A stretch of 63,305 nt of DNA, filler included, from Reclinomonas americana ATCC 50394 (GCA_048213135.1; 7 parts of 3 records of this genome joined end to end with filler, not necessarily neighbours in it); one strand, 5' to 3'. Counted from the first letter of the whole stretch, positions 192-63,305 are shown. The notes: generated by a model not told the origin, from the letters alone. Numbers and translations are program-made.

Positions 192-3100
192 TATCGCTGT
201 ACAAGGGTGAGGTGCACATCTGGAACTACAACGAGCAGATCCTGGTCAAGTCGTTCGAGGTCGCTGATGTGCCTGGTCTGCACTGCTGTCTCTTTCTCAC
301 CGCCCTCCCCCACATACGCTCATCCCTTCTCCCTCTCTCCCCTCCCTGCAGTTCGCGCCTGCAAGTTTGTGGCCCGCAAGCAGTGGTTCGTGGCCGGCTC
401 TGACGATCTGCATCTGCGTGTCTTCAACTACAACACCATGGACAAGGTGGCGGTGTTTGAGGCGCACACCGACTACATTCGCTGTGTGGCGGTGCACCCG
501 ACGCAGTCGTATGTGCTGTCGACCTCGGATGATCTCTCAATCAAGATGTGGGATTGGGACAAGCAGTGGGCGTGCTTGCGCGTCTTTGAGGGCCACTCGC
601 ACTTTGTCATGAATGTGGTCATCAACCCCAAGGATCCGTCGACCTTCGCCTCGGCGTCGCTCGACGGCACCGTCAAGGTGTGGGGTCTGTCGACCTCGAC
701 ACCGTACTACTCGCTCGAGGGCCACACCAAGGGCGTCAACTGCGTCGACTACTACCACGGCGGTGACAAGCCGTACATTATCTCGGGTGCCGACGACAGG
801 TTGGTGATGCCGTGGTCATTCCGCACACCTGGTAACTTGTCGCTCACTTCTCTCTCTTCCTGTGTCAATGTGTAAAGAACGGTGCGCGTGTGGGACTACC
901 AGAGTCGCCAGTGCGTCAAGGTGCTGGATGGACACGGCAACAATGTGTCGACGGTGGCATTCCACCCGCGTTTGCCTGTGATTTTGACGGGCTCGGAAGA
1001 CGGCTCTGTGCGTGTGTGGCACTCCACCACCTACCGCCTGGAGCAGACGCTGACGTACCATCTGGAGCGTGTGTGGTCGCTGGCGTACTCGCCCGAGAGC
1101 AATAAGATTGCCGTCGGTTACGACTATGGTTGCGTGTTGCTAAAGGTGAGCAGCGTGCCACTGCAGCGATGTGCTGGCCGACTGCAATCTCACTACATGT
1201 GTCACCTCTACAGCTTGGCAAGGACGTGCCATTGACCAGCATGGATCCGAACGGCAAGGTCGTGTGGGCCAACAACAATGACGTGCAACAAGTCAACCTG
1301 AAGAGCGCCATTTGTTGCGTCGCCATCCCTCGCTTCAGCGATGTTTTGCATCACTCCCTCACTTGTGCCTGGCGTGCAGCCGAGGACATTGTGGACGGTG
1401 AGCCACTCACTCTCGCCACACGTGATCTCGGCAGTGCCGACATGTACCCGCAAAAGATCTCGGTGCGTGTGCCTTGTTTGTTGAGCGTCTCATTCATTCC
1501 TCCTTATATATTGACTGAGGAAAACAGTACGATCCGAGTGGACGCTACATTGCGGTGATTGGTGAGGGCGACTATGTGATCTACACGGCCATTGCGTGGA
1601 GGAACATGGGATTCGGACAGGCAGTGGAGCTGGTGTGGGGTGTCGACAACTTGTGCGTCGTGTAATGCAGCGCAATTGCACACGAATAGTCATCTCATTC
1701 ATCGTCGCCCCACGCTCGTACAGGTACGCGGTGCGCGACAACAGCACCACCATCAGGATCATGAACACCAAGAATGAGGAGAAGCTGTCATTCAAGCCCG
1801 GCCAGCAAATCGAGGGCATGTTTGGAGGTATGAATGCAACGGTGTTTTCATGTTGCTGCTGGTTCGCGTGAAGTGACGTTCGTGTGTGTGCGCTCCACAG
1901 GACCCCTGCTGTGCGTGCGTGCTCGCGACTTCACCTCGTTCTACGACTGGCACACGGGCACACTCATCACCTCAATCTTGGATCTCGTGCCGCGCGCGGT
2001 TCGTGCCTCGCTCCTCACCCCGTCTTTCATGAAATCACAATCCGCTCATTCGCTGCGTCTATGGTGCAGGTGGTGTGGAACGAGGCTGGCGACAAGCTGG
2101 CCTTCGTCACCGACGATTCGCTGTTCATGCTGCAGTACAATCAGGCACTGGTGCAGCAGCGCATGGAGGAGGGCGCCATTCCGGCCGAGGGTGGACTGGA
2201 GGAGGCGATGGATGTGATTCACGACGCCAGCGAGAAAGTCGGCGAGGGTTGCTGGGTGGGCGACGTCTTTGTGTACGCCACTCGCAATCAGCGCCTCAAC
2301 TACTTGGTGCGCGATCGGACGTTTACCGTCGCTCATCTCGACCGGTGTGTTTTCGCAGCGTTGTCTTTCCTGCTGTGTCATATCGACCGCTCATCTTCGT
2401 GCACGCACACTCGCAGTCGCATGTTCCTGCTGGGCTACATGCAAAAGGAGAACCGTGTGTTCCTGATGGACAAGGAGAAGCGCATCACCTCGTACCGATT
2501 GTCGGCCGCACTGCTTGACTACATGAGTGCGGTGGCACGCGGTGACATGGTGGCTGCGGAGCGGGTGTTCCGCCAGGTGCCACCAGAGACCCACAACCAC
2601 GTCGCTCGCTTCCTGCACACGGTCGGGCAGGAGGAGCTCGCGCTGCAGGTGTCATCGGATCCAGACCACAAGTTTGAGCTGGCGCTCGAGGTCTGCATGG
2701 CTCCTTCACCTCGAAAGTTTGTTGGGTGCACTCACCGATCTGTCATCTTGTTGTGCATCAGCTCAAGCGTCTGGAGTTGGCCATTGAGATTGCACAGTCG
2801 TCGCCGTCAGAAGTGCGGTGGCGACAGATTGCCGACGCCGCTCTCGCCGCTGGCAAGGTACGAATTTGCTGACAAGGTTGCATCACTTGAAACTCCTCTG
2901 ACTGTTTTTTGGGGGGGCAGCTGTCACTGGCGGAGGACTGCATGCGCCGTGGTCACGATTTCAACGGTCTGCTGATGCTGGCCTCGTGCTCCGGCAATGC
3001 CAAGGTGGTGCGCGAGGTCGCCGAACAGGCGCAGGCTGGTGGTGAGTGTGCCGTCTCGCCGAAAAGAAACAAAAGGGGGTATTTTGGCTGATGGACGTGG

Positions 3101-12385: not shown

Positions 12386-15300
12386 TCAAAATTGATTGTC
12401 GAGCTGCATGGCCGCTTGCTCGCCGGCAACGCTGTACGCAGTGAACATGCGCGGCGAGAAAAACTGGAAACCGGTCGAAATGTGCGGGTATTGACCACAA
12501 GGCGTGAAGCAACAAGCGCATGCGCAACACCAACAATGGCAGCAGTCGCAGCAGCAGCCAGCGAGGCGGTCGTTGACGTCTTCGAGTGTTGAATTGATGA
12601 CATTCGCGGCGACGAGGCCGGCGAGGTGAATTCGAGGTTTCATGTATGCAACCTTGCCTTCATCGCCATTGCTGTACCGCACAGTGAAATGGAAGCAGGC
12701 GTCCAAGTAAACGTCCTCATGCTCACGCGAAAACTGATCAACGCGTCTTCCCCTTCGACCTGATGACGGGAGAAATTCCTCGCGCAAGCACGCCTATCAG
12801 TGCGCAAGGAACATAGTCATCGCGTGCGATGAAAAGCGTGCATGTGCCATGATAAGCGAGCTCACCAACAGATCACGAGGTCGCCCATCATGCCCACGAT
12901 AACAATAGAATTCGCATCCGTAGTAGAGTCGAGCAAGCTCAAGTGCAGCGAGGAGTCCTTGGCATTCTCGATCGTCATCTTCACTGCCGTCAATGATAAC
13001 GATTTTCTACGACAGCGCCACTGGTCAGCACAACAAAAACTCAGCCTTCAAGCACGATCGCGAGGATACCAAACCAGTCTCTTTCGCTCAAACAAAGGCA
13101 GCACTGCCATGTTCTCGAAGTGCCCACCGTCGGAAAGGTACACGTTGGTGGCAGAGCCAATAGATGGGAACTGGAACGCCTGCTTGATACTGCTCAGCGC
13201 CTGGACTGTTGCATCCAGCAGAAACTGCAACCTAGGCCAGTCTTGTCGACGAACGTAAATCAGCGCTTACACGGTAAGAGTATCGACGAGACACCCTGCA
13301 TTACACTTACTGCGAGCATTGATGGCTGTCAAGGCCGAAAGTACCACTCCTAGTACGAATAGACCAAAGATGCATGCAGATACTGCGATATTGAGGGAGG
13401 TGAAGTCGAACTTCCAGTTCGAGTTTGGAGGATTATCCGGCTCCGGTGTGGAGAAGTTGCCGTTGTAGTAGCCGAGTGCAATGAGACCGATAATAGCCAA
13501 GATGACCACCGTAAACGTTCCGCACAAGCACCTGACAGTCGCCGAAACGGGAATCAGAAGAGTGTGCCAACAGGGGAAGGGATTCGAACAGCACTAACCA
13601 AGTCTTCCAGTTCGGTCGGGTGAGCGCAAAGAAGCGGCCGAGTCCAACATTTGCCCAGGACAACACCAAGGAGTTACCATAGTCACTGGCAATGCGGCCA
13701 TTTTCGTGCCCAATTGCCGCTGCTGAAATCGCCATGGCCTGCCGATCGAAGTGAGATTGAGAAATGTTCACCGACAACCGCTCACAGTACCTCAGAGAGC
13801 CGCGGCGCTCTGGGAAGCTCGAGATTGGGGAAAGCGGTTGCCTGAAACACGGAAGTAGGCACGAGCAAGGCATGACAAGAACGTATGATAAAGACACCAC
13901 ACACAACAGTTGCGCAACGCTGTCATTGAATACAGTAACAACAGCCTCATCGACAATATTCGTTGTCGGTGAAGGTCGGTTGAGGTACAGTGAGTGCAGA
14001 TTTGTCAGGCCGCCTGTGGCTGGCACAGGCGTTGGTAAGCCAGCGAGCCAGGTGTACGGGAAGCGCGACGGGTGCAGGCGGCGAGCACACGAGTTGTGTC
14101 TCGCCGGATCATTGGCATGCATTCCGGGCAAGTTGCCGGCTTGCGTCTCCATCACAAATAGTCCATACGACGGATTGGCGGTGTCATCGTCTGGTACCCC
14201 GCTCGTGTCAAAAAGCTTCCACCCGTTCACAGTCTGCAGCGGTGATATCGTGAACACAAACACAATCGGCGTTTGAAGTGCATCACAGACCTGGCACGAA
14301 ATATAGTGGGGAACATTCATGCCACGAGCCGCGACTGGAGTAGCTGGAAACTCGGTCATGCTAGTCTCCGCAGGAGCGGCAAGGCAGTTGCCAAGATAGT
14401 TGCCGTAAACTTCGCAGCACGGCGAACCGAGGAAGTGGCACGAATACGAGCAGCAACAACATACTTGAGGCTGCAAGTGGGTTGGTTAGCTCGAGCACGA
14501 CAAATTATTCACGCAGAACAATCTCAGTGTTCTAACCTTGTCTGCACGATAAAATGCCTCCGTCAGACGCCATCGGTAAAAGTGATGCAGCATGCTCCGC
14601 GAGAACGGGCGGAGAACAAGGCTTGCGCCAAAGGCAACGTATGAAGCCCAACCCAGCCATTCCCAGAACTTCTGATCGAAATCCTTCTCGTATCCGGCGA
14701 AAGAAACGGACCCAAAAACCCGATACTCAAATGCCTGCAATCAGAACGACACACAAGTTGACAACACAAAGCGAAACAGCAAGAGAGCAGAAACACAGGA
14801 ACTCACAGTTGCAGAAATTGTTGCAAGACTGACGAAGCCAACCATGTCCACAATATGCGTGACGACGGGGACCTTTTTCACACAGAACTTGACAACATAC
14901 ATGACGCCGATCACGAACAACGAAGCGCCCTCGATGAATATGTCCAGCCTGGACTCCACACGGTCTGCATGCGCAATCTCCATGAGACAACACCAACGGC
15001 GATGTTATCTTGTTACCACAACACCACGCAACTGAACCACGAGACAGCTGTGATGAACAAAATCAATCCACAGGTCGTCATGAAGAATCGAAAAAGTGGC
15101 CAGTAGCGTCCGTCCGACCCGTGCACCAGCTTCACGATGGAGCAGAAGAGTACGCCTCCCAGTCCAACACCGAGGACGGCACCAAGTCGCGTATCCAATC
15201 GGTCTACATTCATCATGCGACCGATGGGCGAGTCAGCCAACACAACGGCAACAAGCATGACTCGGGAGCCGACTGGAATGCACAACGAAGTCAACAAGAG

Positions 15301-17794: not shown

Positions 17795-20478
17795 ATGGAT
17801 GGCGCACTGCTTGTGAGCGACTCGACCACCGGCGCCTTCACGCGATACGACGCCTCACTGACAGGCTTCCGCGTGGTGCTCTGGCTCGACAAGACAGTTG
17901 CGCGCACAGCACACACACAGAAAGGCCCTCTTTTCACCAAAAATAGTAATGCCTCTTTTCCCACACACAGTGTGACACCGCCCCGGCACACGTGCTGAGC
18001 ATGCTCGAGGTGCAACATGTCAACGCAATGGACTCTGATCCGTCCATGTTCTCGCTGGTGTTCAACAGTGGCCGCGAGGTGCAAATGGACCCGATGAGCA
18101 CTGCGGATAAGCGACGCTGGCTCGAGGCGCTCAGTCACTCATTGCCGCTCTCACAAGCAGTTACGAGAGAGNNNNNNNNNNNNNNNNNNNNAAAGGAGGA
18201 AGGAGGAGGAGGAGGAGGAGATGGAGAGAAGGAAGAATACAAGCGAAAGAGGAAAACGGTGACGGTGAAGAAGAATAGAAGCAAGAAGTGGAAGAAGAGG
18301 AGGAGGAGAACAAGAGGAAGGAGAAGGAGAAGAGGACGAAGAAGGAAGACGCTCTCTCAGTCTCTGTTCCTGTTTTCTTTTCCCTCTCCTCTTCCCTTTC
18401 TTTCTCCTTTCATCTTGCGATCGTGTTCTCCACCTCCTGTTCTAAAAAAACAAGAAGGCAGACTCACTCTCTCCGTCCTTTCTTGCTCGTGTTCTTGTTC
18501 TCCTGCTTGCTCTCCTTCTCTTTCTTTTCTTCTCATCTCGCGATCTTGTTTTACGCCTCCTCCTACTCCTTTGTTCTTCGCCTCTTCTTCCCTTCTAATT
18601 GAACAAGAAGAAAGAGGAGTGAGAATCACGCTCTCTCCGTCCTTTCTTGTTCGTTGTCGCTTTCTCCTCCTCCTTCGCTTCCTCCTCCTCCTTCGCTTCC
18701 TCCTCTTCCTTCGCTTCCTCCTCTACCTTCGCCTCCTCCTCTTCCGTCTCCCACTGCATCTCGTGCGATCTTGTTCTTCTTCCTCTTCCGCTCCTTCTTC
18801 TCTTTCTCTTTCTCTTCTGTATCTTCCACTTCAGCGATCTTGGTCTGCTTCCTTTCCTTGTTTTGTTCTTCGCCTCTTCCTTCTTATTGAACAACAAGGA
18901 AGAGGAGTAAAAAGACTCACTCTTTCCGTCCATTCTTGTTCGTTGTCGGTTTTCTCCTCCTTCTTCGCTTCCTCTTCTTCCTTCTCTTCTGCTCTCCCTT
19001 CTCCCACTTCATCGTGCGATCGTGTTCTACTTCTTCCTCTTCCGCCCCTTCTTCTTCTTTCTCTTTCTCCACTTCAGCGATCTTGGTCTGCTTCCTTTCC
19101 TTTTTTTTCTTCACCTCTTCTTCCCTTCTCAAAGTACAACAAGGAAGAGGAGTAAGAAGACTCACTCTCTCCGTCCTTTCTTGTTCTTGAGCGTGTTTAT
19201 TCTTCTTCTTCCGCTCCCTTCTTCTTCTTTCTCTTTCTCCTCCTCTGCATCATCCGCTCGTTCTTCTTGTTCCTCTCTCTCCTTCTCTTCCTCCTCCTTT
19301 TCTTCTTCTTCTCAAAATAACAGAAAGAACATGAGTTCGAAGTCATGCACTCTCCGTGCTTCACCTTTTCCTTCGCTTCCCCCCTGTCCTTTCCCCCTCC
19401 CTTCCCCCTCCACCCACCCTTCCCCCCCTTTTTTTGCGTACAACAGTCCGAGTTGGAGGCCAAGCGTGTGGAACGGGCGCATCAGCGGGGCAGGGAGGCG
19501 GTGGAGTTTGCGCAGCGTGGCGCCATGCTGGTAAAGTTTGTGTTCAACAAGGGCGGCGCTGCGAACCACCAGCGCTTCTTTGCCGTGTCGCCGGATCAGC
19601 GGGAGCTCAGAGTTGCGTTTCTCCCAACCATCATTCTGTTCGACATTTGTGCTGATGATTGTGCGTAGTGGGGCAACACGGCCGCCAAGCTGCGCAGCTC
19701 GGTGGAGATTGCGTCGATTCGTGAGGTGGTGGTCGGCGCGCAGTCGCCGGTGCTGCGTTCGGTGGCGGCACTGCAGGCGCCAGCCAGTTGTGTCTCCCAT
19801 CCCTCTTCTTCGTCATTCTCCACCTTTCTCACTTCGCCCCCCCATTTCACCACCCCAGTTGCCAACACCTGCTTCAGTGTAATCACGGTGGAGCGCTCGG
19901 TCGACGTGCAGTGCCAGGATCAGGCCGCACGCGATCAGTGGTTGCTGGCGTTTGAGTACATCAGGCACGGCGTGGACCCGCTGCTGATGCGCGAGGTAAC
20001 ATGCAAAAAAAAGATAACCTCTCCCATCTCTTCACCGTCGTCTCTCTCACACGCTTTTCCCCTCGTGCAGCCGCCCATCGATTTGCCGCCGATTGACGTG
20101 TTTATCGAGAACCTGTCACCGGTGGTGGCGCAGCGAGTGCGCATGCGTGCGCAGTCGTTGCAGCCGCAGGGACAGCCGACTGCCTCGGTCATGAGTCTGC
20201 ACCAGCCGACGGGGTCGTCGTCATCGAGCCAACTCGGCTCGATGTTCACCCACGACGATTTTGACGACGACGCCAGTGCCGCAGGGGAGCGGTCGCGGCG
20301 CGCGCAGTCGACGAGTGCCACGGCGCCCACTGCGGCCGCCGGTGCCGTCAACCGGGTGCCTGCCGGCTCGCTCTTTGCACGCGCGCCACCCACCGACATG
20401 TCGAACCCGGAGGCGCGCATTCAGTACGCCGAGCAGGTGATGGCCTTTGTGGCCACACTCAACCCCGACGAGAAGTAA
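17795..20478 (+). CDS. PH-domain protein (PLC-like PH domain, probably a second PH-like fold at the N-terminus)
   Basis: QRGAMLVKF...HQRFFAVSPDQRELR|WGN...VEIASIREVVVG...CFSVITVERSVDVQCQDQAARDQWL; N-terminal FSLVFNSGREVQMDPMSTADKRRWLEAL. Confidence 0.8.
18350..19190. repeat. Pyrimidine-rich degenerate tandem repeat in an intron of the PH gene
   Basis: Recurring ctcactctctccgtcctttcttg and cagcgatcttggtctgcttcctttcc blocks. Confidence 0.75.
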
Positions 20479-36030: not shown

Positions 36031-36588
36031 TGAGAGGACTGCGTGCACACAGGGGTGAGGCGAAAGTGTGCGTGCACGTGATGTGCAACATGCAGTGAGC
36101 CGCAACATCGGTCATGAACNNNNNNNNNNNNNNNNNNNNNNNNNNNNNNNNNNNNNNNNNNNNNNNNNNNNNNNNNNNNNNNNNNNNNNNNNNNNNNNNN
36201 NNNNNNNNNNNNNNNNNNNNNNNNNNNNNNNNNNNNNNNNNNNNNNNNNNNNNNNNNNNNNNNNNNNNNNNNNNNNNNNNNNNNNNNNNNNNNNNNNNNN
36301 NNNNNNNNNNNNNNNNNNNNNNNNNNNNNNNNNNNNNNNNNNNNNNNNNNNNNNNNNNNNNNNNNNNNNNNNNNNNNNNNNNNNNNNNNNNNNNNNNNNN
36401 NNNNNNNNNNNNNNNNNNNNNNNNNNNNNNNNNNNNNNNNNNNNNNNNNNNNNNNNNNNNNNNNNNNNNNNNNNNNNNNNNNNNNNNNNNNNNNNNNNNN
36501 NNNNNNNNNNNNNNNNNNNNNNNNNNNNNNNNNNNNNNNNNNNNNNNNNNNNNNNNNNNNNNNNNNNNNNNNNNNNNNNNNNNNNNNN

Positions 36589-37115: not shown

Positions 37116-37197
37116 NNNNNNNNNNNNNNNNNNNNNNNNNNNNNNNNNNNNNNNNNNNNCAGAGAAAGCTCACACCCTCTCATGCAGCCAACACACC

Positions 37198-40100
37198 AGT
37201 GCGTCCAAGTGGTTCTGCTGGTACGTGTAGAAGTGGATGTTGGTCGCGAGTTCTTGCACAAACTCGTCGCCGTGCAGCGGGTACCGTTCGAGCTGTAGAT
37301 GTGGTGACGGTGTGAGCCATCGACAAGCTGCACAATGACGCCCGAGTCGGCACACCCACCAGTCTCAGTCGTCTCTCGTTCAGCACTTTGCGGATTACTC
37401 GAGCAATCTGTGGCACAGGGAACGAGAGTCAGTTCGCCTGTGGTGCGCTCGCTGACAGGGGAGATTACGAAACTCCACCGGCCGAGAAACCCTCGGTGCA
37501 AAAGGCGAGATTCTCGCCCTCCGTGGGTGTCCCCAGCTTGCCACCGTACTGCATCATCGCCGAGAGAGAGAGAGAGGGAATGAGCGTTGCTGTCATCAAC
37601 GCAGAAAGTCAGTGTCGCCGCCACTCACTCGCTGAATCAGGTGGTTCCACAACACCACACGCGATCCGTACGCTGGTGGTGCCACAAAGATCTGCTTCTC
37701 GAACGCAGCAAGTCCCTTCTCATTTCCAGCAAAGTTGCTGGTATTTCCAATGAGAATCACGCGGGGCGTGACCTCCTTGCCCGTCAGTGGATTCAGCACA
37801 GGCTTGCCGAGCAGTGCCAACACATCCGCCTTTACGCGAGTTGGGTCCTCCACTGGTTCTCCAGAGGCACCCGGATCGGCGGCCGCCTTGGCACCCTTCT
37901 TGCCCTTCTTTCCCTTCTTGCCCTTCTGCTCGTACACTCGCGCGTGTGAGATAATATCATGACAGACGAAGAAACAAAGTCACAGACAACGCACCCCCTT
38001 GCCACCAGCGCCACCCGAAAACACCTTGTCGGCGTCGTCAATGTAGATCACGGCACAGTTGTTGAATTGAGCGGCCAGCTGTACAGCGTTGCGTGATGAG
38101 ACAAGCACGGAGTAATCGAGAGAGCAGTCGCCTCTTGCTCACCAAGAAAATACTCTCCACCATGAACTTGGTGGCACTCGGGCTCTCGTTAAACTTGCCC
38201 TGTGGGGCAGGCATCCGTGTTAGCAGTCAGTCGCACGTACCTCAACAACGGCACTGGTTTAACAAACCCGCAAGTTGGTCGGACTCAGGTCGAAGAACAT
38301 GGCGCCTGTCTCCGTGGCAATTGCCCTCGACAGCATGGTCTTGCCGGAACCGCGAGGTCCATACAGCAGGACCGACTTGGGCGAGCGAGCGTACAGCAGG
38401 TCACAGCCGAGCGGCAAGATGGCGTACTCGACACACAACTGTACGCATTCGTGAGACGAGAGCGTGCAAGAGAGTAATGAACTCGTCGTCAGGCGAACCT
38501 CGCGGACTTGCGCCAAGCTGGGGCTGTTGAATTCGGGCTCTGCCTCGTCCATGGCCTTCTGCTGCTCCTCAAGGATCTGCTTGCCAATCGGGTACTCGGT
38601 GGTGAAGTCGTCGCCCAGCAGCTTGGGGGCGTCGGGCTTGTTGGACTTCTTGCCACCTGCGAGCGATGAACGAGGTGAGATCGAGACGGATTCGTTGGAA
38701 AAGAGCCGAGCAGCACGCACCCTTCTTGCCGCCCTTCTTGCCACCTTTGCCGCCCTTCTTGCCGCCATCTTCCCCACTCTCGGCGTTCTTGGCGGCCTGC
38801 ATTTTCTCGGCCTTGGCGCGCACAGCGTCCTCTTGCAACTTGGCCACGTGATCGTAGGTGCCGAGGAACTCGGCCATGTGCACCGGCGGCACCTACACGT
38901 AGAGGCGCGGTAAGTCTTTTCGACGCGCTGTGTTTGCGATGGGAGAAAGAGAAAAGACGCAACACGCTTGAGAATGCCCTTGGCCAGCACCTCGGTGAAG
39001 CGCTTGCGCTCCGCATCCTCCGCCTGCTTGCGCAGAATCGCGGGGTCGATAGCCGGCGCAGCGGATTCCTCCGCTTTGCCCTTTTTGCCCTTGGCACCCT
39101 TCTTGCCTGCTCAAACCGGATGCAGTGAGCAACGGGGAGACTCGTGTATGCTTGGTGGTCACAAAACCGACACGCACCCTTTTTCTCCTTGCCCTTCTTG
39201 CCTGTTTTGGGTGGAGCGACGAGAATGAGAGACCTGTTCACCTACACCCTTCCCCCATAACAGACGTACCCTTCTTTCCCTTGCCCTTCTTGTCGCCGCC
39301 ACCATCGCCGGTCAACTGCGCCCGCAAGTTCTCCAACTCCATGCGCAGAATGGTGTCCACTTGTCGCTCAAACTGCATCACCGCGTGTCAGCTCGACGGG
39401 CGACACTGACTTACGCTTCCCAGCCCTCGCATATGCGCACCTCGTTGCGAATGCGGCCGTCGATTCCGCTGCGCACGAGGCGCACCTCGGGATGCTGCGG
39501 ACGGTCGAGACCCTCACGCACTCCGGACTCCCACTTGTCGCCGTACTCGGCCAGCCTGCACCACGTGTGAGCGACCACTGATGACTGGCACCTCACCACT
39601 TACTGCACACACACACGAACCCCTGTTGAATGCGCCTGGTGATCTCGTCGTCCATCGCTCCCGGATCCTTCTCCTCCTCGCCCTCCGCGGCCCCCTTCTT
39701 CTTGCCCTTCTTACCCTTCTTGCCCTTCTTTCCTTTTTTCCCCTTCTTCTCGCCGTCCTTCTTGCCCTTCTTGCCTTTCTTGCCCTTCTTGCCACCCTTC
39801 TTGTCGCCCTCCTCGTCGTCGCCAGCCGCACTCTTGTACTTGTCCGGGTTCTTGAGCATGTCTTGCGTGACAAGGTAGCCGACTTGCGCATCTGTGGTCT
39901 CCGCCATGTCCATGATCTGGCCCGTCTCCACATAGTTGTCGACCACTGTGGCAATGAAATCCACGCGCTGCTGGTGCACGAAGCGCTGGCCCAACTCGGC
40001 TCGGATACTGTATGCATGTGTGAGTGTGTGAGGTTGGAGTGTGCTGTTGTGTGTAAAACGGCTGTACAAGAGTGAGAAACGCACCGCTCCTCCTCCACCA

Positions 40101-41545
40101 CCTCCATGCGCTTCAGCTCCAGTTCGGCCTGTTCTTGGCGCACCTTGCGCTGCGTGCGAATGGTGCCGTGCACGCGCTCGGGATCCGTGTCGGGATTGAC
40201 GGGCTTGGGTTCCATGCCTGGCCATCGGAGGAGAAAAGTCAACTCGAGGTTCGAGCAAATACACACCAACACCAAGCTCACCGAGGAAAATCAGCTCTGC
40301 TGAACGCAAGGCTGCTGTCTTCTTCCTCGCCATGTACATGCGGAAACTGCGCACAAGAAGAGGAGCAAGTCAGCGACACAGCTGCTGCTGCTGCTCTTGC
40401 ATCTCCTTGAACGCAACGCTCGGTGGATTTTCGTGGCGGCATCGTCGGGGTGCATGCGGTTCGGCAGCTCGTCGCTGTCGGTGCCGAGCTCAAAGTCGTC
40501 AAAGCTGCGATCCACACACACACGTGGTGAGACGACTTGTTCACTTGCTGCTTCACCGCTGGGCACACGCCACGCACCGAATGTCTCGAATCACACGGAA
40601 ACGGTGACGGGCTTGGCGACCGCGCTCGTTCCGCTGCAGAATGGCCACAGCCGCCTCTGGTGTCAGCCGTGGCACGAGGCGGCCGTATGGATCGCGCTCG
40701 TAGGCAGAGTCGGGGTTCTGCGGCACTGTCGATGCGTCGACCTTCAGCAGGTCGTGATCGTCGAGATCCTCGTCCGGCACATTGTACGTGCGCACCACCA
40801 AATCCTGCACAGCGGCTGCGCTTCAGCACAACAGCTCTGCCCCTGCCGGTGGCCAAGCACAACGAGGCACGCAACAATGTAATCCTTCTTCTGCTGCATG
40901 ACCTTGTTCTCCTCCACAAAGTAGTGCGGCACGGGCACTTGCAGTACCTCGGGAGTCAGCTGCAGATCACTGATGACATCGTCAAAGTTGGGATACTCGC
41001 CACGCAGCATCACCAAGCGCTGAGTGCTGACGGTGAGTACGGTGGATCGACAGCGCAGTGCAAGGTGAGAGACGCACCCGACGGTACTCGACCGTTCGCA
41101 CAATCAGTGCGTCGAGCAAGGCGCGGATTGTCTTGCGCTTCTGCGGCTGAATGGTCTGATCGTGAGCGGCTTCCAGTCGGCGCATGATGCGCAGGTGGGT
41201 CACATAGAGGCGAGCTTGGTGCGGGATCTGAAACTCGGGTTTCTGTGGCGCGCCCGCGCGTGTGTGTGTGAGAGAGAGACAACACTACAGAAACCGACAG
41301 TGCGTTTCTCACGCACATCGAACTGAGGGCCGTAGCGCTCCGGTGCCAGGGCATCCTCGCGGGCGCAGCTGGTGAGGTCTTCGATGCCCTCTTGCAGCGC
41401 AGTGTCAAACGTGCTGTACGGAGACGATCACACACAGTGAGCCGGCAAGCAAGTACGCATGACACTCATCACAAACAGACAGATAGCGCGAAAGGGACCA
41501 CACTTGTGGCAGCAAGGAGGAGGGGAGAACGTACCGATTGGACAT
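37198..41545 (-). CDS. IQCA1: IQ and AAA domain protein, dynein regulatory complex subunit 11; multi-exon
   Basis: MSNR start; HDQTIQPQKRKTIRALLD; IQ motifs ILQRNERGRQAR and KIHRA|FRMYMARKK; ELIFLG|MEP; KKG tracts; Walker A SVLLYGPRGSGKTMLSRAIATETGAMFFDLSP. Confidence 0.93.
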
Positions 41546-43181: not shown

Positions 43182-44581
43182 CTTTTCGGCCTTCTTGTCG
43201 GACTTGGACTTCTTCTTGCCCGAGCCAGAAGCTGCGGCATAGAGAAAAAATTGAAGAATGATCACGCCCGAGAGCGTGCAGGCAGCCAGCGAGCTGAGCT
43301 TGACTGCACAGAAGCACAAGGTATCGTCATGCATGTGGGCGAGAAGAGACAGACAGAGAGAGAGAGAGTGCAGGGTAGGCACGCAACGGAGAGCGTCGGG
43401 GGCCTCCTTGAAGGTGGTGAACACGCGGGCTGCATGCGAAGATGCGAGTGAGACGGAGGCAGAGAGAGACGCAGATAAGTATGCAGGCTGCTCACCGAGC
43501 GTGCCAAAGAACTGCAGGCCGCACGTGATGATGCTGAGCTCGCCAGTGCTTTGCGCCTGCACTCGGCGGTGAGGCAGCGTGCGCTCAAGAGAAGAGAATA
43601 GTAAAGTCGACTCACCGAGTAGTTGGCCCAGATTTGCGTGACGCGAGAGGCAATCAGCATGACAATCGACGTGGCCTGCATGGTCTCCAGCAAGCCCATC
43701 GGCAGCACAGTGCACATGACACCGCAGGCGGCGACAAAGCTGCACGGACACACACACACACGTGTTTTATCAGAGGCCGAGCAGAGAGGGCAGAAATACT
43801 TTGAGGAAGAAAAACACACCCCGCCGTAATCAGGTACGACACGGAGACGCGGTTCGGGTACTCGTAGCGATAGATGAGCATGATAATGATCAAGTCTTGG
43901 GCGAGTGGAGGGGGGAACACAGTGAGCATGAAACTCGGAAGAATGCATGCACACACACAGAGTGCACGTTACCAAAGAGCAGCACAAAGAAGGAATCGCC
44001 AAACGTGTTGAGCGGGTACCCGCGGCGCAAGCTGAACGCGAACACCGTCAACGCTCTACACACAAGACCCCAAGTCACACACAACTGCAAAGAGGCAACA
44101 ACAAGACAACAAAGCGCGCAACGGATACGCCTCCAACACCGTCGACAGAAGCGACACTCCACGAGCACTGCGCTTGCTGACAATCTTTTGCACTTGCGGA
44201 ACCTAACAACAGCACACTGTATGAGAGACACACTTGCACACAATGAGAGAGACACGTGGTCGCCACCTTGAAGAACATGGAGCCCGCCACGACCGCATAT
44301 CCGATAATCTTGCTGAGCAGCAGCGACAGACACTCGCCATGTGAGACACACACAAACAACAGAGACAAGAGTCAAGGAGGCCACAGTGAGAGAGACAGAG
44401 ACACACACACGCGTGCATGCATGCATGCAAAGGATATCAGTGAAATGCCCGTCGACAAAGAGTCGCGTGTGGCACTTCTCGCCCAAAACGCTGACCAACA
44501 AGCTCGCTGTGTGCGCAGGTATGTAAGCCTCTCTCTCTCACACACACACGAACTGAAGATGCACACTCTGCGCTCACCCAT
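43137..44581 (-). CDS. MPDU1: Mannose-P-dolichol utilization defect 1 (PQ-loop family), multi-exon
   Basis: CLSLLLSKIIGYAVVAGSMFFK; FSLRRGYPLNTFGDSFF; SRVTQIWANY; STGELSIIT; ARVFTTFKE; C-terminal KKSK ER-retrieval motif. Confidence 0.93.
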
Positions 44582-45242: not shown

Positions 45243-46407
45243 TCACAGACCCAGACCGTAGACGGTGACAAACACCGACAGTGTCTCTGTTTCGTACTCC
45301 ACCGTCACTTGACCTGAAGGAGGGAGGGAGGGCGGTGAGCATCGAAACAGAGGAAAAGGGGAGAAGAATGCGCGCGCGCGCGCACCGTCTTGTCGTGGAT
45401 CCCATGATGCCACATCGGCCACATGCAAACCGGCGCCAACTCGTTGCGACAAGTGGCATGTCACTGGGAGGGAGGGATAAGGGTGAGCGATGAAGAGAAG
45501 GAAGGAAGGGAGGAGGAGCAGGGAAGGAAAGCAAGAATAGCACGCAAGTGGAGTGCGCGGCAGAACCAGGTATGCTCCTCTATTGTAGCACGGTGTGTGT
45601 GCGAGAGAGGGAGAGAGAGAGAGAGAGAGAGAAAGCAGGGAAAGCGATAGCGGAAACAAGCACAAATCTGTGGAGGAAAGAGAAATGCTTCTTGCCTTGC
45701 AGTGTGTTGTGTGTGAGAAAACAGGGAAAGCGATAACGAGAGCAGGTAGAGCTGAGTGTAACAACGAGAGATGCTCCTTGTCTCGCAGCGAGAGGGCAGC
45801 ATGTGTGTGCGTGTGAGAGAGAGAGGAAGCGAACAAATACAACTGTGTGGCACAAAGAGAGATGCTCCTTGTCTCGCAGTGCGTTTGTGGCAAGGAGGAA
45901 GAGAAGAAGACAACGAAAGACGAACGACACCTTGCGAGAGTGACGCAGAGCAAGGAGAACAGAGTCAGCAAGCTACACACTGCACGTGAAGCAAGCAAGC
46001 ACTGGGCAAGCAATCGATCTGTGTTCGCCAGCCCTCCCTCTCCAGTCTCCCTTTTTTGCTCTCACCGAGGTACTTGAGGTTCTGCTTCAACCCGGCCAAT
46101 CTCTTGAGCGTCTGCTCGAGGATTGCCGCGCTCCAGTCGTTGACCTTGCTCGGATGATAGCGCGCCTATGAGAGAGAGTAAACTGTCAACCAAAGAGAGA
46201 AACGCACACAGAGCACAAGGAGTTGAGCGAAACTTCCTTCAGCACTTCCTCCAACACTGCCTCAATCTCCTCCTTCACATCCTCGCCGTTGAACACCACC
46301 AACTGTGTGTCATTTTAAAAGAAAATGTGAGTGCTCTTTGTTGCTCTCTCTCTCTCTCTCCTCTCTCTCTTTCCAAACAACGCAACGTCTTCCTCCTCTG
46401 CTTCCAT
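45243..46407 (-). CDS. DYNLT1: Dynein light chain, Tctex-1 type, 5 exons
   Basis: MEAEEED|LVVFNGEDVKEEIEAVLEEVLKE|ARYHPSKVNDWSAAILEQTLKRLAGLKQNLKYL|VTCHLSQRVGAGLHVADVASWDPRQD|GQVTVEYETETLSVFVTVYGLGL-stop; paralog assignment tentative. Confidence 0.9.
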
Positions 46408-47114: not shown

Positions 47115-49035
47115 ATGTCTGCCAGCGATCTCAGCCCACTAGTCTCTCTCGCGGAGATTCGCGCCAAGCGTTGCGTGCGCTTCCCTTGCCCCTCTCTCTC
47201 TCACTTCACTGGCCTCATTGTACTGCACACACACAGTGGATGCGGAGGCATGTGTCCGCGTTCTGTCTGTGTGTCTCTCTCACTGCCTCTCTCACGTGTG
47301 CACACACGCACGCACACAGGTGTTGGGCGAGATGCGAGAGGTGTTTGCGCACTTGAGCGAGATGAATGCCAGTGGAGCGATGCCAGTCATGCTGCGTGTG
47401 CACTCTTCTGCTCTCTCACGCATGCACTCTCCCTCTCACGCATGCATGCATGCACACAGTGGTGAGCAGCAGTTCCTGGAGTTCCTCTCTGCGCAACACT
47501 GTGGCATGGAGTCAGAGGTGAGCGTGTGTGTGAGAGAGAACGCACACACACACACACACGCAATGCACTCATCATTGTGTTGTGTTTTGCAGGAGATGTG
47601 CAAGTTGATTTTCCGCGGTGCGCTTGCCTCTCTCTCTCACACACACTCTGTGCTTGTCTTTCTCTCTCCATCTAACCCTCCTCTTTCGAGCGCAGCACTG
47701 GACACGGAAGGCACAGGTCTTTGCATTCTCACGCCACTCCAATCACTGGACATCATCATTGTGTGTGCTCACTCAGCACTGACTGACTTTTGCAGGTTCG
47801 GTGGACTTTGTGGAGTGGGCCACCTCCATGTACTTGATTAGCTCGGCGTCGGTGGGCGATGAGAAGATGCTGGGCCTGTTCTTCAAGAGTTGCGTGTTTT
47901 TTCGTATTTCCTTGGCTCTCGTGGTCGACTCGACTCACGCCCTTCCCGTTCCGTGGCAGTCTTTGATATCAACAAGGTACTCCGTGNNNNNNNNNNNNNN
48001 NNNNNNNNNNNNNNNNNNNNNNNNNNNNNNNNNNNNNNNNNNNNNNNNNNNNNNNNNNNNNNNNNNNNNNNNNNNNNNNNNNNNNNNNNNNNNNNNNNNN
48101 NNNNNNNNNNNNNNNNNNNNNNNNNNNNNNNNNNNNNNNNNNNNNNNNNNNNNNNNNNNNNNNNNNNNNNNNNNNNNNNNNNNNNNNNNNNNNNNNNNNN
48201 NNNNNNNNNNNNNNNNNNNNNNNNNNNNNNNNNNNNNNNNNNNNNNNNNNNNNNNNNNNNNNNNNNNNNNNNNNNNNNNNNNNNNNNNNNNNNNNNNNNN
48301 NNNNNNNNNNNNNNNNNNNNNNNNNNNNNNNNNNNNNNNNNNNNNNNNNNNNNNNNNNNNNNNNNNNNNNNNNNNNNNNNNNNNNNNNNNNNNNNNNNNN
48401 NNNNNNNNNNNNNNNNNNNNNNNNNNNNNNNNNNNNNNNNNNNNNNNNNNNNNNNNNNNNNNNNNNNNNNNNNNNNNNNNNATTCGGCATGCAAGTGCGC
48501 TCTGTGGGAAGGGAATGCTGACGGGGATTGTGTGCAGGATGGTTTCATCACGCGTGAGGAGGCGGCCAAGGTGGTGCGCGCGCTCACCATCTCGAGTCAG
48601 GCGGCCATGACGGCGCTGCTGCAGGATGAGGAGTCGTCGGTGGTCACAGGACTGCGAGCCATCTCGCGTGAGCGTTCAGCGCAGGTGCGGCATTGCTGGC
48701 CCTCTCGTCTCCTCCTATCCCAACTATGCCGCTCACTCGCACGCAGGTCGAACCACTCGTCGAGCTGCTGTTTGAGCGCCTGGTGAGTGATTGTGTGTGT
48801 AGCGCAGCGTGTTGGAAGCCTGTCTCTCTCTCTCTCTCTCTCTCACCCCACGCGGTTTGTCCGAGATCAGGATTCCAACAAGGACGACAAGATCTCGCTG
48901 CAGGAGTGGATGGACGGCATTCACAGCGTCGACGATGTGTTCCGCGAGTTGCGTGCTCCAGTGCAGTCGTGCTTTGTTTGTTGGTGATTCACACCCTCCA
49001 CCACCAGGATCTTCTCCACGCTCGAGCTGATGTAA
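47115..49035 (+). CDS. EF-hand calcium sensor (calcineurin B/NCS-like), many small exons
   Basis: EF loops DTEGTGSVDFVE, DINKDGFITREE and DSNKDDKISLQE assembled across introns. Confidence 0.88.
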
Positions 49036-56906: not shown

Positions 56907-56937
<31 letters not shown>

Positions 56938-58163: not shown

Positions 58164-58207
58164 NNNNNNNNNNNNNNNNNNNNNNNNNNNNNNNNNNNNN
58201 NNNNNNN

Positions 58208-61439: not shown

Positions 61440-61451
61440 TTAATTAATTAA
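61440..61451. other. Artificial scaffold linker
   Basis: TTAATTAATTAA in an N run. Confidence 0.97.
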
Positions 61452-61979
61452 NNNNNNNNNNNNNNNNNNNNNNNNNNNNNNNNNNNNNNNNNNNNGGAGC
61501 AGAGAGTGATGGAGAAGGATGCGGAGAAAGTGCAGGGGAGGAGATGTGAGAGGAGTTGAGTGTGTGCAGGGGCGGAGAGAGAGGAGTTAAGCGACGATCA
61601 CATGACCACCATGCGAGCATGGCACGCGCGCGCCTGGCCCACGCACGATGCAGAGATGCCGCGCGATCGTGGCATTGCATCAGACACCACCGCGCACACG
61701 TGCATCGTGCGGAAAGCAAGCAAGAGAGCAAGTGCGTGCGTGTGTGCGTGAGGAAGATCTGTGCGGCAATGACTCACCGAGCACCGTGACCTTTTCTCCA
61801 GCCGCAGCCATGATTCACAAAGGAGGGGGGATAACGAAAGAGGGAAGGGTTGGGGGAAGGGCAAGCAAAGGAGGGGGGGTAACGATCGCGCGAGTGGCTG
61901 AGAAGCCGATGAATGATCGATTGTCCTGTCGCGAGCCGCTTTGTTTTTGTTTTGTGCGTGTTGAGCGCGCACACACACA

Positions 61980-63305
61980 ATGGACTCTGATTACTTCAAG
62001 ACGCCGTCGCGGCCGCCGCCGATCGACATGAGCTCGTCGGCGCGACCTGCCTCGCCAGTGCAGTTGCGCACACACGCACACATGAAGAAAAAAACGCGTG
62101 CCATGTCTCACTAACTCTCTCTTTCTCTCTCTCTCTGTGCAGCTTGCAACGTCAGTATGGATCGCCACTGAACAACCCGCAGTCGCCCTCCGCCAAGGAC
62201 GCGTTCTCGCGCACTGATTTGTACATTCGTCAGGTGTGCGCGGGCCCAACTCTCACTCTTTTGTCTCCTCTCTTCTTTCTCTTGCTTGCTCACTCTGCAC
62301 ACGCGCGCGTATAGACTGACAAGCAACGCGAGACGACCTTCCATCGCCTGCACAAGTACCTGGAGTCGGCTGAGGCTGAGCTGGAGAGTGGACGCGGTGA
62401 GTGTCTCTGTGTGTGTGTGATTGTTCCGCACTCCGGACCCTCTTTGCTGTGTTGCGGGCCCTCTTCTCTCACTCTCTCAGAGTGGGCCCTTCTGTGTGTG
62501 CCTCTTTGAGTCTCTCTCTTTGTCTATGTGTGTCTCTGTGTGCGTCTGTGTGTCTCTTTCTCTCTTTCCTCTCCCCTTCTGTCTGTCTCCCTCGCTGTCC
62601 TTCTCTCTCTTTCCTCCCTTTCTCTCTCCTTCTCCCTCTTTCCTCCCTCTTCTCTCTCCTTCTCTCCTCCTCCCTCTCTCCTTCTTTCTCTGTCTCCTTT
62701 CTCTTCTTCTCCTTCTCACTCCTCCTCTCTCCTTCCCTCCCTCGCTGTCCTTCTCTCTCTTTCCTCCCCTTCCTCTCTTCTTCGCTCTCTCCTTCGCTCT
62801 CTCCTTCTCCCTCTTCTCTGGGCCTCTCTCTCCCTTTCTCACACTCTGCGCAGAGAAAACGCAGCGACTGTTGAACCGCCTGGAGACGTTGGAGCGCTCA
62901 TTGGAGGACGAGAGGCTGCGATGGCGTGATGAGTGGGAACGCGAGGCACAGGTGTGTGTGTGTGGAGTCATTGCCACTGTGATTGAGCTGTGTGCTCACT
63001 CTTTCTCCTCCCGTGCAGCGTCGTGCGTTGCTGCGCAGCATGTCGGTGTCGCATCATACGCTGGGCTCGACGCGAGGAGCGAGCCCTGTGGGAGACCACA
63101 CGTACTGAGCGGGCTCCGTTCTTTTTTTTTCACTTCAGATATTTTTTTCTAGCGCACGCACATGCGTGGTGGTGGTGGCCCTCTTCTTGGTGTGTTGTAT
63201 GTTGATGAGTGCGATGGAGATTGAAAAAGAACAGTGGCCACTTTTTCCCTCTCTTTTCATCAGTATCGCACAATGCTGTCGGCGGTGAGCTCGTCCAGGC
63301 GCAGA
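61980..63305 (+). CDS. Hypothetical coiled-coil protein, 5' part
   Basis: MDSDYFKTPSRPPP...|LQRQYGSP...|TDKQRETTFHRLHKYLESAEAELE...|EKTQRLLNRLETLERSLEDERLRW splice in frame. Confidence 0.6.

What the first reader, a model, noticed from the sequence alone, without database searches (positions are those of the whole stretch)
1314..62069. Abundant second class of 5' splice sites shifted by one nucleotide (GTTGCGT type)
Seen: most donors have G at +5 (GTGCGT, GTGAGT, GTCTGC, GTATGA; 15 of 16 COPB2 introns). About 15 introns instead start GTT with no G at +5 and G at +6. GTTGCGT occurs at 1314(+), 15032(-), 19612(+), 31231(+), 38963(-), 40417(-), 46386(-), 47170(+), 47889(+) and 48948(+). Variants: GTTGCGC 17897(+) and 62063(+), GTTGAGC 6076(-), GTTGTGT 19787(+), GTTTCGC 46233(-). 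Each restores the reading frame, and several restore a conserved motif (RELR|WG, FKIFDINK, KIHRAFRMY). The exonic -1 base is never G and is mostly A. Known: rare mammalian A|GUUAAGU donors are read by U1 snRNA in a +1-shifted or bulged register, which predicts this pattern. Inference: here the shifted class is common (by eye roughly 10-15% of introns), implying routine dual-register recognition, or a variant U1 or U6 snRNA.
Basis: partly seen in the sequence, partly recalled or inferred. Interest (0 to 1): 0.82.

Follow-up and report, generated by a model that had tools for sequence, protein, structure and literature searches.

The report
Second splice-donor class, shifted one base
About one intron in six in this protist-like genome piece starts with GTTGCGT instead of the usual GTGCGT-type signal, as if the recognition signal sat one base further into the intron, which is rare in humans and could show how the spliceosome sets its cutting position.

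Summary
All 15 listed strings are present. GTTGCGT occurs 26 times against 11.3 expected. A gene finder blind to donor positions +3 to +8 placed 11 of its 86 intron starts on GTTGCGT (expected 0.31, P=3e-14). A donor-aware catalogue has 90 introns: 63 with +5G, 16 of the GTT..G(+6) class and 11 others. That is 18% (CI 11-27%).

With manual additions I list 22 members. All have T at +3 and G at +6. GCG fills +4 to +6 in 18, and the -1 base is G in only 1 of 22, against 53 of 63 in the main class. Length, branch motif and CAG end match ordinary introns.

Nine IQCA1-like homologues align without a gap across four such junctions in at least six of nine rows each. Site 6076 is not supported, 15032 is unverified and 7994 is rejected.

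The mechanism stays inferred: ordinary GU-AG introns read with a one-base register slip. A human-type U1 5' end is predicted to pair with them worse than with random GT sites, so a divergent or second U1 remains open. No RNA runs, genome or snRNA genes were available.

The parts
1314..1379 (+). Class-B intron (GTTGCGT, 66 nt, phase 1) in the COPB2 gene
   Evidence: Chosen by spliced alignment of 3 of 3 COPB2 homologues and by the blind gene finder. Branch CCTCACT. The loop is variable, so homology cannot tell +1 from +4 (+1.4/+0.2 bits).
14965..15032 (-). Candidate class-B intron (GTTGCGT, 68 nt)
   Evidence: Good 3' signal (12.8) and frames join, but the gene was not modelled by the gene finder. 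Unverified.
17897..17970 (+). Class-B intron (GTTGCGC, 74 nt)
   Evidence: Part of a low-scoring gene model with a PH-like C-terminal half. 3' score 9.7.
19612..19668 (+). Class-B intron (GTTGCGT, 57 nt, phase 0) in a PH-like gene
   Evidence: In the blind and the donor-aware models. No in-frame alternative scores above -4.0 on the main-class donor matrix; a GT at -27 scores -4.9.
19787..19858 (+). Class-B variant (GTTGTGT, 72 nt)
   Evidence: In the blind and the donor-aware models.
31231..31304 (+). Class-B intron (GTTGCGT, 74 nt)
   Evidence: In the blind and the donor-aware models.
32058..32129 (-). Class-B variant (GTTGAGT, 72 nt); the only member with G at -1
   Evidence: Donor-aware model only.
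32231..32293 (-). Class-B intron (GTTGCGC, 63 nt)
   Evidence: Donor-aware model only.
32892..32956 (+). Candidate class-B intron (GTTGCGT, 65 nt)
   Evidence: In the blind model. The + strand gene model competes with a - strand model.
33482..33548 (+). Candidate class-B intron (GTTGCGT, 67 nt)
   Evidence: In the blind model. Same strand conflict as 32892.
36039..36106 (-). Class-B intron (GTTGCGG, 68 nt)
   Evidence: In the blind and the donor-aware models.
37408..37473 (-). Class-B variant (GTTTCGT, 66 nt) in the IQCA1-like gene; it has no GC at +4
   Evidence: Chosen with 3 of 4 homologues. Moving the donor +3/-3 costs 5.5/8.0 bits. Gap-free in 6 of 9 homologues.
38893..38963 (-). Class-B intron (GTTGCGT, 71 nt) in the IQCA1-like gene
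   Evidence: Chosen with 1 of 4 homologues. Moving the donor +3/-3 costs 5.8/6.5 bits. Gap-free in 8 of 9 homologues.
40347..40417 (-). Class-B intron (GTTGCGT, 71 nt) splitting an IQ motif
   Evidence: Chosen with 3 of 4 homologues. Moving the donor +3/-3 costs 3.2/5.0 bits. IQ spacing is kept without a gap in 6 of 9 homologues.
40805..40875 (-). Class-B intron (GTTGCGT, 71 nt) in the IQCA1-like gene
   Evidence: Chosen with 2 of 4 homologues. No gap at the junction in 9 of 9 homologues. The +3 shift is neutral (+0.9 bits).
43304..43387 (-). Class-B intron (GTTGCGT, 84 nt) in a PQ-loop (MPDU1-like) gene
   Evidence: In the blind and the donor-aware models. An in-frame GTCTGTC 33 nt downstream would give a 51-nt intron.
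46166..46233 (-). Class-B variant (GTTTCGC, 68 nt) in a Tctex-like gene
   Evidence: Read by hand. The next exon matches the Tctex-1 profile and DYNLT1 from residue 34, which fits the model's N-terminal length of 33. The alternative GTGTGCG 24 nt downstream would give a 44-nt intron and 8 extra residues.
46303..46386 (-). Class-B intron (GTTGCGT, 84 nt) after the 7-codon first exon of the Tctex-like gene
   Evidence: Read by hand. Branch CACTCAC. N-terminal length fits solved Tctex chains.
47170..47236 (+). Class-B intron (GTTGCGT, 67 nt) in an EF-hand gene
   Evidence: In the blind and the donor-aware models.
47889..47959 (+). Class-B intron (GTTGCGT, 71 nt) in front of an EF-hand loop
   Evidence: In the blind and the donor-aware models. 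The joined text reads F-K-I-F-D, then the loop. I compared this only by eye with the EF-hand_1 profile numbering seen.
48948..49007 (+). Class-B intron (GTTGCGT, 60 nt), last intron of the EF-hand gene
   Evidence: Donor-aware model only. 3' score 6.7.
62063..62142 (+). Class-B intron (GTTGCGC, 80 nt)
   Evidence: In the blind and the donor-aware models. 3' score 15.6.
5971..6076 (-).
   Evidence: 106 nt, 3' score 1.8. The gene model skips it with another intron.
169..5466 (+). COPB2 gene, reference set of 15-16 introns
   Evidence: Pfam, homologues, spliced alignment.
37170..41545 (-). IQCA1/DRC11-like gene (IQ motifs plus AAA ATPase), 21 introns, 4 of them class B
   Evidence: Pfam AAA, homologues, spliced alignment.

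Best explanation
These are ordinary spliceosomal GU-AG introns of the major type. Their 5' splice-site signal is the main-class signal with one extra U after the GU: H|GUUGCGU instead of G|GUGCGU.

Cleavage is before the first G. The G that is invariant at +5 in the main class sits at +6. The machinery therefore has to read the GCGU block one nucleotide further from the cut.

Most likely this is a one-base slip of the 5'ss helix with U1, and then with the U6 ACAGAGA box. The slip could be the whole helix shifted by +1 or one of the two U's bulged out.

Shown: the existence, frequency and anatomy of the class, and the cleavage position at codon resolution for four junctions. Inferred: which RNA reads the signal and in which register.
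For: Existence.
- The donor-blind gene finder puts 11 of 86 donors on GTTGCGT (expected 0.31, P=2.6e-14).
- 12 of 25 GTTGCGT have a strong 3' signal, from a model trained only on the main class, at 55-89 nt. The rate is 14.4% for all GT.

Ordinary intron body.
- Length is 70.0+/-6.5 nt, against 68.9+/-7.1 in the main class.
- The branch motifs are the same (CTCAC commonest in both), the branch-to-3'ss distance is 23 against 21 nt (p=0.6), and the 3' end is CAG in 19 of 22.
- Intron interiors are no more alike than shuffled sequence, so this is not a repeat family.

Cleavage at +1.
- In the IQCA1-like gene the model is gap-free against homologues across all four class-B junctions, in 9, 6, 8 and 6 of 9 rows.
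- Moving the donor 3 nt into the intron changes the profile score by +0.9, -3.2, -5.8 and -5.5 bits. Moving it 3 nt out costs 5.0 to 8.0 bits.
- 4 of the 22 members have no GC at +4/+5.

Slip.
- +3 is T in 22 of 22, and GT[ACG]GCGT shows no 3'-signal enrichment (3 of 18).
- +4..+7 repeats the commonest main-class +3..+6.
- The -1 base is A 11, T 6, C 4, G 1, against G in 53 of 63 in the main class. This fits the +1-shifted register better than a bulge.
- Shifted and +2/+3 bulge registers have been validated experimentally in human cells (passages of PMC4856993).
Against: No RNA evidence could be obtained, so the cut site is inferred.

With the human-type U1 5' end, predicted pairing of the class averages -1.44 kcal/mol. 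That is weaker than random GT sites (-2.76) and the main class (-6.79). Among the eight commonest predicted structures (19 of 22 sites), C4 pairs with +6 in 7, C9 with +1 in 5 and C8 with +1 in 1. A simple human-like slip therefore does not explain recognition.

The class is stricter than 'main class plus U'. GCG is present in 18 of 22, against 19 of 63 in the main class (p=4e-5). The C cannot pair with canonical U1 or U6.

The depletion of G at -1 is stronger than a shifted register alone predicts (main-class -2 is G in 16 of 63).

Branch scores of the class are slightly lower (4.48 against 5.63, p=0.007).

At 1314 homology is uninformative, and at 40875 the +3 reading is as good as the +1 reading.
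Confidence: 0.6

Rival explanations
1. The class is read by a divergent snRNA. One form is a single U1 whose positions 5 and 6 are complementary to GC. The other is a second U1-like (or U6-like) RNA dedicated to GUUGCGU. The register is then normal for that RNA.
For: The strict seven-base consensus, with GCG in 18 of 22, is like that of introns read by a dedicated low-abundance snRNP. The human-type U1 is predicted to bind these sites worse than random GT. In a what-if scan of the 16 possible U1 positions 5/6, the four variants with G at position 5 and one other (C-A) give the class an advantage over random GT, and G-C is best for both classes together. The main class also prefers G at +3 (45 of 63) and C at +4 (25 of 63), which do not match canonical U1. 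A comparable idea was raised for the GTGCGTG donors of Ostreococcus (passage of PMC2483917).
Against: No snRNA gene could be examined. The scan only restates the consensus. A third donor group, AG|GTA[AC] without +5G (5 introns), fits a canonical U at U1 position 6. The U1 5' end is conserved in most eukaryotes (recalled). Branch and 3' signals are those of the main class.
Confidence: 0.22
2. The true donor is the GC at +4 (GTT|GCGT), so these are GC-AG introns with one more codon in the exon.
For: The GC at +4 is in frame in 18 of the 22 members. At 1314 and 40875 the +3 model scores as well or slightly better (+1.4 and +0.9 bits). Most COPB2 homologues have one more residue in that loop.
Against: Members with GTTT or GTTGT/GTTGA have no GC at +4 (4 of 22). 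One of these, 37473, is among the best supported by homology. The +3 shift costs 3.2 to 5.8 bits at three IQCA1-like junctions. It would also add a residue where 6 to 8 of 9 homologues have no gap. The reading would need an invariant exonic GTT and an intron start GCGTN without +5G, unlike the main class on both sides.
Confidence: 0.06
3. The sites are chance strings or mis-modelled junctions produced by gene models built without transcripts.
For: The gene models are my own. Decoy dinucleotides gave 61 to 80 'introns', so the 5' end is fixed only by GT plus frame. Several members rest on one model only (32129, 32293, 48948) or on conflicting strands (32892, 33482). 7994 and 6076 fell on inspection.
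Against: The enrichment was obtained blind to the motif (P=2.6e-14) and again without coding information. There is independent homology support at five junctions.
Confidence: 0.04

Closest known systems
Human 5' splice sites read by U1 in the +1 shifted register (Roca and Krainer 2009, as described in PMC4856993; the original paper is not held)
   Same: No G at +5 and a G at +6. A GU cut one base upstream of where the U1 helix would place it. A non-G base at -1; the test oligonucleotide listed has A at -1.
   Different: The human sites are described as an atypical, noncanonical subset (passages; that they are few is recalled). Here they are about 18% of introns with a strict GUUGCGU consensus. 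Predicted pairing to a human-type U1 is poor. No suppressor-U1 test was possible.
Human 5' splice sites with a bulged U at +2/+3 (Roca 2012; Tan 2016, PMC4856993)
   Same: Two U's after the G, followed by the normal downstream block.
   Different: In humans this register covers 68 predicted sites (54 after curation) out of 201,541, and all noncanonical registers together are 2.1% (section read). Here the share is about 500 times higher. G at -1 is avoided rather than kept.
U12-type (minor) introns
   Same: A second intron class with a much stricter 5' consensus than the main class.
   Different: There is no RTATCCTT donor and no TCCTTAAC branch (recalled consensus). Branch, length and 3' end are those of the main class.
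Ostreococcus introns with the atypical donor GTGCGTG (PMC2483917, passage read)
   Same: A GTGCGT-type main consensus that does not fit canonical U1 well. The authors raised snRNA change as a possibility.
   Different: The passages read mention no one-base-shifted class, and that organism is intron-poor.

Membership tests
Major (U2-type) GT-AG spliceosomal introns | GT at the 5' end and AG at the 3' end | tested here: met
   22 of 22 by construction. CAG in 19 and TAG in 3.
Major (U2-type) GT-AG spliceosomal introns | Branch motif and spacing like the organism's other introns | tested here: met
   CTCAC is the commonest motif in both classes. Distance is 23 against 21 nt (p=0.6). The score is somewhat lower (4.48 against 5.63).
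Major (U2-type) GT-AG spliceosomal introns | Removal restores the frame and the conserved protein | tested here: met
   COPB2 1314. Four IQCA1-like junctions are gap-free in 6 to 9 of 9 homologues. For the other members only the frame was checked.
Major (U2-type) GT-AG spliceosomal introns | Spliced junction seen in RNA | not testable with these tools
   No RNA run was listed.
+1 shifted-register 5' splice sites | No +5G, and G at +6 followed by U | tested here: met
   +6 is G in 22 of 22 and +7 is T in 17 of 22.
+1 shifted-register 5' splice sites | The -1 base pairs with U1 U10 (A expected) and is not G | tested here: inconclusive
   A 11, T 6, C 4, G 1 of 22. A is enriched, but T and C are common.
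+1 shifted-register 5' splice sites | The shifted helix with U1 is more stable than the canonical one and is stable enough to bind | tested here: not met
   With the human-type U1 end the mean is -1.44 kcal/mol, below random GT (-2.76). C9 pairs with +1 in 5 of the 19 sites covered by the eight commonest structures. The organism's own U1 is unknown.
Bulge +2/+3 register 5' splice sites | U at +2 and +3 | tested here: met
   22 of 22. Other inserted bases are not enriched.
Bulge +2/+3 register 5' splice sites | Exon side paired as in canonical sites (G at -1) | tested here: not met
   G at -1 in 1 of 22, against 53 of 63.
U12-type introns | RTATCCTT donor and TCCTTAAC branch close to the 3' end | tested here: not met
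   The donor is GTTGCGT and the branch is CTCAC-type, as in the main class. The consensus of the family is recalled.
GC-AG introns | Cleavage before a GC | tested here: not met
   4 of 22 have no GC at +4. The +3 shift costs 3.2 to 5.8 bits at three of four IQCA1-like junctions.

The most novel reading that the evidence does not exclude
The organism has a second, dedicated 5' splice-site reader: a U1-like snRNA, or a U1/U6 pair, whose 5' end matches GUUGCGU. About a sixth of its otherwise ordinary introns would then form a lineage-specific third way of 5' splice-site recognition, beside the major and the U12-type systems.
Probability: 0.15. Interest if true: 0.88.

Novelty: new variant of a known kind. 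Interest (0 to 1): 0.64.

Why it matters
In humans, splice sites read out of register are curiosities. The +2/+3 bulge register accounts for 54-68 sites in about 200,000. Their study depends on minigenes and suppressor U1s.

Here is a genome in which roughly one intron in six uses a single, sharply defined off-register donor. That offers a natural system for three questions:
- What fixes the cleavage position, U1 or U6 together with the GU?
- How much slip does the U1-to-U6 hand-over tolerate?
- Can snRNA 5' ends co-evolve with donor consensus?

There is also a practical side. Gene predictors trained on a single donor matrix score these donors below zero (-4.0 to -7.7 on my main-class matrix). 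They would mis-annotate many genes of this organism.

Tried and rejected
RNA evidence. No RNA holder was listed for window 37200-47100, so no reads could be laid.

Genome and snRNAs. No genome is held. Rfam at gathering thresholds finds nothing in the window, so U1 and U6 could not be inspected.

Earlier findings. Three look-ups found nothing.

Organism. It was not identified. The best COPB2 matches are at most 70% identical.

Comparison with a close relative.
- One 148-aa ORF from a 2700-nt assembly contig is 87% identical to an IQCA1-like exon, but it covers no class-B site.
- Two further protein searches, with ORFs that read through class-B donors, found nothing.
- The one metagenome scan returned two loci; I tested L001, which is not an orthologue (spliced-alignment score 181), and did not test L002.

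Gene finding.
- A first gene finder without intron signals was too weak.
- One version timed out.
- With a lax intron penalty it over-predicted: 223 introns.
- Decoy donor dinucleotides gave 61-80 introns. This shows that the 3' signals locate the introns, so the decoys are not a false-discovery estimate.

Pfam on single exons. Only weak, partial matches, which did not settle any junction.

COPB2 profile scoring. Uninformative for 1314, which lies in a variable loop.

PDB search with the 23-aa Tctex exon. It found only unrelated designed proteins.

Site 7994 (GTTTCGG). Rejected, because a main-class GTGAGTG lies 6 nt downstream in frame.

Sites 41766 and 42517 (GTTGCGT with a good 3' signal). 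They have no coding potential upstream.

Repeat-family (introner) origin. Rejected. Interior similarity equals that of shuffled sequence.

Diplonemid affinity. Considered and dropped. Their donors are G/GTATG and their branch motifs are weak (section read).

Papers. PMC2719486 and PMC3360564 are not held.
Full report
WHAT THE WINDOW IS

The window is 63,305 bases with 6,916 N in 28 runs. It carries intron-rich eukaryotic genes. Those identified are:
- a COPB2 gene;
- an IQCA1/DRC11-like gene with IQ motifs and an AAA ATPase domain;
- a Tctex-like dynein light chain;
- an EF-hand protein;
- a PH-like protein;
- a PQ-loop protein;
- two halves of a UbiA gene.

The organism could not be named. 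The best COPB2 matches are at most 70% identical. No genome is held, no RNA run was listed, and Rfam finds no RNA gene in the window. Everything below therefore rests on the DNA of the window and on protein homology.

THE STRINGS ARE THERE

GTTGCGT occurs 26 times on both strands against 11.3 +/- 3.5 in dinucleotide shuffles, and none of 100 shuffles reaches 26.

REFERENCE INTRONS

I wrote a protein-to-DNA spliced aligner that allows GT or GC donors. With three COPB2 homologues it gives the same 15 introns.
- Fourteen of the 15 have G at +5. Positions +3 and +4 vary.
- Only 1314 (GTTGCGT) lacks +5G.
- Fourteen of the 15 are 63-78 nt long.
- Their 3' parts show CT[CG]A[CT] about 20 nt before [CA]AG.
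- A sixteenth intron at 5394, also with +5G, comes from the gene finder.

A TEST BLIND TO THE MOTIF

From these signals I built a gene finder. It uses codon usage, a branch matrix, an acceptor matrix and a length prior (69 +/- 6 nt). At the donor it sees only GT. It predicts 86 introns in 24 gene models.
- Eleven of the 86 donors are GTTGCGT. Only 26 of the 7,195 GT in the window have that continuation, so 0.31 are expected (binomial P=2.6e-14).
- 42% of all GTTGCGT in the window are used as donors, against 11% of GTGCGT.
- T at +3 together with G at +6 occurs in 17 of the 36 donors without +5G and in 0 of the 50 with it (Fisher 2e-8).
- From the single-position counts of that call, independence predicts 2.8 such donors (my arithmetic).

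Decoy dinucleotides in place of GT still gave 61-80 'introns'. The 3' signals therefore locate the introns, and the exact 5' end is fixed only by GT plus frame. This is why the motif enrichment, and not the intron count, is the evidence.

A second test uses no coding information, and its 3' model was trained only on +5G introns.
- 12 of 25 GTTGCGT are followed at 55-89 nt by a strong branch-plus-AG signal.
- The rate is 14.4% for all 6,877 GT (p=7e-5), 29% for GTGCGT, 3 of 26 for the reverse complement and 3 of 18 for GT[ACG]GCGT.
- The extra base therefore has to be T.

CATALOGUE

With a three-component donor model the gene finder gives 90 introns: 63 with +5G (class A), 16 with T+3/G+6 and no +5G (class B), and 11 others. 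Class B is 18% (CI 11-27%).

Adding six hand-read or low-scoring cases gives 22 class-B introns.
- 40875, 43387, 37473 and 36106, which are in both the blind and the aware models;
- 32892 and 33482, where gene models on the two strands conflict;
- 32293 and 32129, which are in the aware model only.

Other outcomes:
- 7994 was rejected, because a GTGAGTG lies 6 nt downstream in frame.
- 15032 is plausible, but its gene was not modelled.

ANATOMY OF CLASS B

- +3 is T in 22 of 22.
- +4 is G in 20.
- +5 is C in 20.
- +6 is G in 22.
- +7 is T in 17.
- The -1 base is A 11, T 6, C 4, G 1.

In class A, -1 is G in 53 of 63 (Fisher 1.9e-11), +3 is G in 45, and +4 is C 25, T 18, A 16.

The bodies of the two classes are alike.
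- Lengths are 70.0 +/- 6.5 nt in class B and 68.9 +/- 7.1 nt in class A.
- Branch motifs are the same, and the branch-to-3'ss distance is 23 against 21 nt (p=0.6).
- The 3' end is CAG in 19 of 22.
- The branch score is somewhat lower in class B (4.48 against 5.63, p=0.007).
- Interiors are no more alike than shuffled sequence, so this is not a repeat family.

Class B is stricter than 'class A plus a T'. GCG is present in 18 of 22 members, against 19 of 63 in class A (p=4e-5).

WHERE IS THE CUT?

For most members there is no in-frame GT with a positive class-A score that also gives a normal intron length. The standing alternative is the GC at +4.

The IQCA1-like gene decides this for four sites. 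Full-length homologues were found with one exon as query.
- Spliced alignment with four of them picks 40417 and 37473 in 3 of 4, 40875 in 2 of 4 and 38963 in 1 of 4.
- In a profile built from nine homologues, moving the donor 3 nt inward changes the score by +0.9 (40875), -3.2 (40417), -5.8 (38963) and -5.5 bits (37473). Moving it 3 nt outward costs 5.0 to 8.0 bits.
- The same shifts at six class-A donors lower the score in 11 of 12 cases, and one raises it by 4.2 bits. The test therefore has a few bits of noise.
- In a multiple alignment the model is gap-free across the four junctions in 9, 6, 8 and 6 of the 9 homologues. This includes the IQ motif split by 40417 and the AAA lid split by 37473.
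- 37473 reads GTTTCGT and has no GC at +4, so a GC-donor reading cannot cover the whole class.

At 1314 the junction falls in a variable loop, and homology is silent.

For the Tctex-like gene, the exon after 46233 aligns to DYNLT1 from residue 34. The model places the same tyrosine at residue 33. The alternative donor would add eight residues.

HOW IT MAY WORK

The sequence H|GUUGCGU is the main-class xG|GUGCGU with a U in place of the first intron G and the cut one base upstream. Put another way, it is GU plus an extra U plus GCGU.

Both a +1 shifted U1 helix and a bulged U at +2/+3 are validated in human cells (passages and Table 3 of PMC4856993). There the +2/+3 bulge covers 54-68 of 201,541 sites.

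The avoidance of G at -1 and the enrichment of A fit the shifted helix better than the bulge. In line with this, the two GTTGCGT that lie in sense exons of confident genes and are not used (1129 and 9527) both have G at -1. Taking the 14 used GTTGCGT donors (0 with G at -1) against the three in sense exons not used as donors (1129, 9527 and 9590; 2 with G at -1), Fisher gives p=0.022 (my arithmetic).

A simple transfer of the human model fails on energy. With the human-type U1 5' end printed, the predicted duplexes average as follows:
- class A: -6.79 kcal/mol, in the canonical register in 45 of 63;
- the third group: -5.05 kcal/mol;
- random GT sites: -2.76 kcal/mol;
- class B: -1.44 kcal/mol.

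The near-invariant C at +5 cannot pair with canonical U1 or with the U6 ACAGAGA box (recalled sequences). In a what-if scan of U1 positions 5 and 6, the four variants with G at position 5 and one other (C-A) favour class B over random GT. That scan restates the consensus and is a prediction, not evidence.

On the other side stands a third donor group without +5G, AG|GTA[AC], with five introns. It fits a canonical U at U1 position 6.

My ranking is therefore:
- a register slip by the ordinary machinery: 0.6 for the whole statement;
- a divergent or second U1-like reader: 0.22;
- a GC donor at +4: 0.06;
- artefact: 0.04.

COMPARISON AND NOVELTY

Off-register donors are known in humans. A single off-register class with a strict consensus, making up roughly a sixth of introns, is not described in what I could search.
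- Three literature searches and the passages read turned up no such class in any organism.
- The nearest case is Ostreococcus, whose GTGCGTG donors led its authors to consider snRNA change.
- These searches cover only the held open-access library. Supplements were not consulted.

I file this as a new variant of a known kind.

LIMITS

- The gene models are mine, and no transcript evidence exists here.
- The share of 18% comes from one 63-kb window.
- The snRNAs are unknown.

Noticed in passing
58948-59709 (+) and 60686-61393 (-): The two halves of one UbiA prenyltransferase domain lie on opposite strands on either side of the N run 59721-60593. Pfam profile positions 2-99 are on one side and 99-200 on the other. 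This looks like an inverted piece in the scaffold.
   Followed up: no
28067-28166, 33955-34054, 37060-37159, 51154-51253, 58108-58207, 61396-61495: Six pairs of N runs, each of exactly 44 bases and 12 bases apart. The regularity is unexplained; it may be masking or a scaffolding artefact.
   Followed up: no
3360-4108 (+): A 162-nt unit is repeated five times (75% matches) inside the only long COPB2 intron, 3236-4606, which is 1371 nt.
   Followed up: partly
19996 (+), 35360 (-), 42161 (+), 36727 (+), 47977 (+): A third donor group without +5G reads AG|GTA[AC]. All five have A at -2, G at -1 and A at +3. Their predicted U1 pairing is on the exon side and at +3/+4.
   Followed up: partly
41078-41242 (-): A 148-aa ORF from a 2700-nt public assembly contig is 87% identical to this IQCA1-like exon and appears to read through neighbouring introns. 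DNA of a close relative therefore exists in public data.
   Followed up: partly
1129 (+) and 9527 (+): GTTGCGT inside sense-strand exons (COPB2 and the 9210-10325 ORF) is preceded by G in both cases and is not used as a donor. A third copy at 9590 (A at -1) could be an in-frame 72-nt intron or plain coding sequence.
   Followed up: partly
37629-40006 (-): The IQCA1-like protein carries several lysine/glycine-rich runs (KKGKKG...) in its predicted exon translations. Whether homologues lack them was not checked.
   Followed up: no
whole window: Codon usage in the training set is rich in NCG codons. TCG is the commonest serine codon, and GCG, CCG and ACG are frequent. CT/GA and CA microsatellites are common in introns and spacers.
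   Followed up: no
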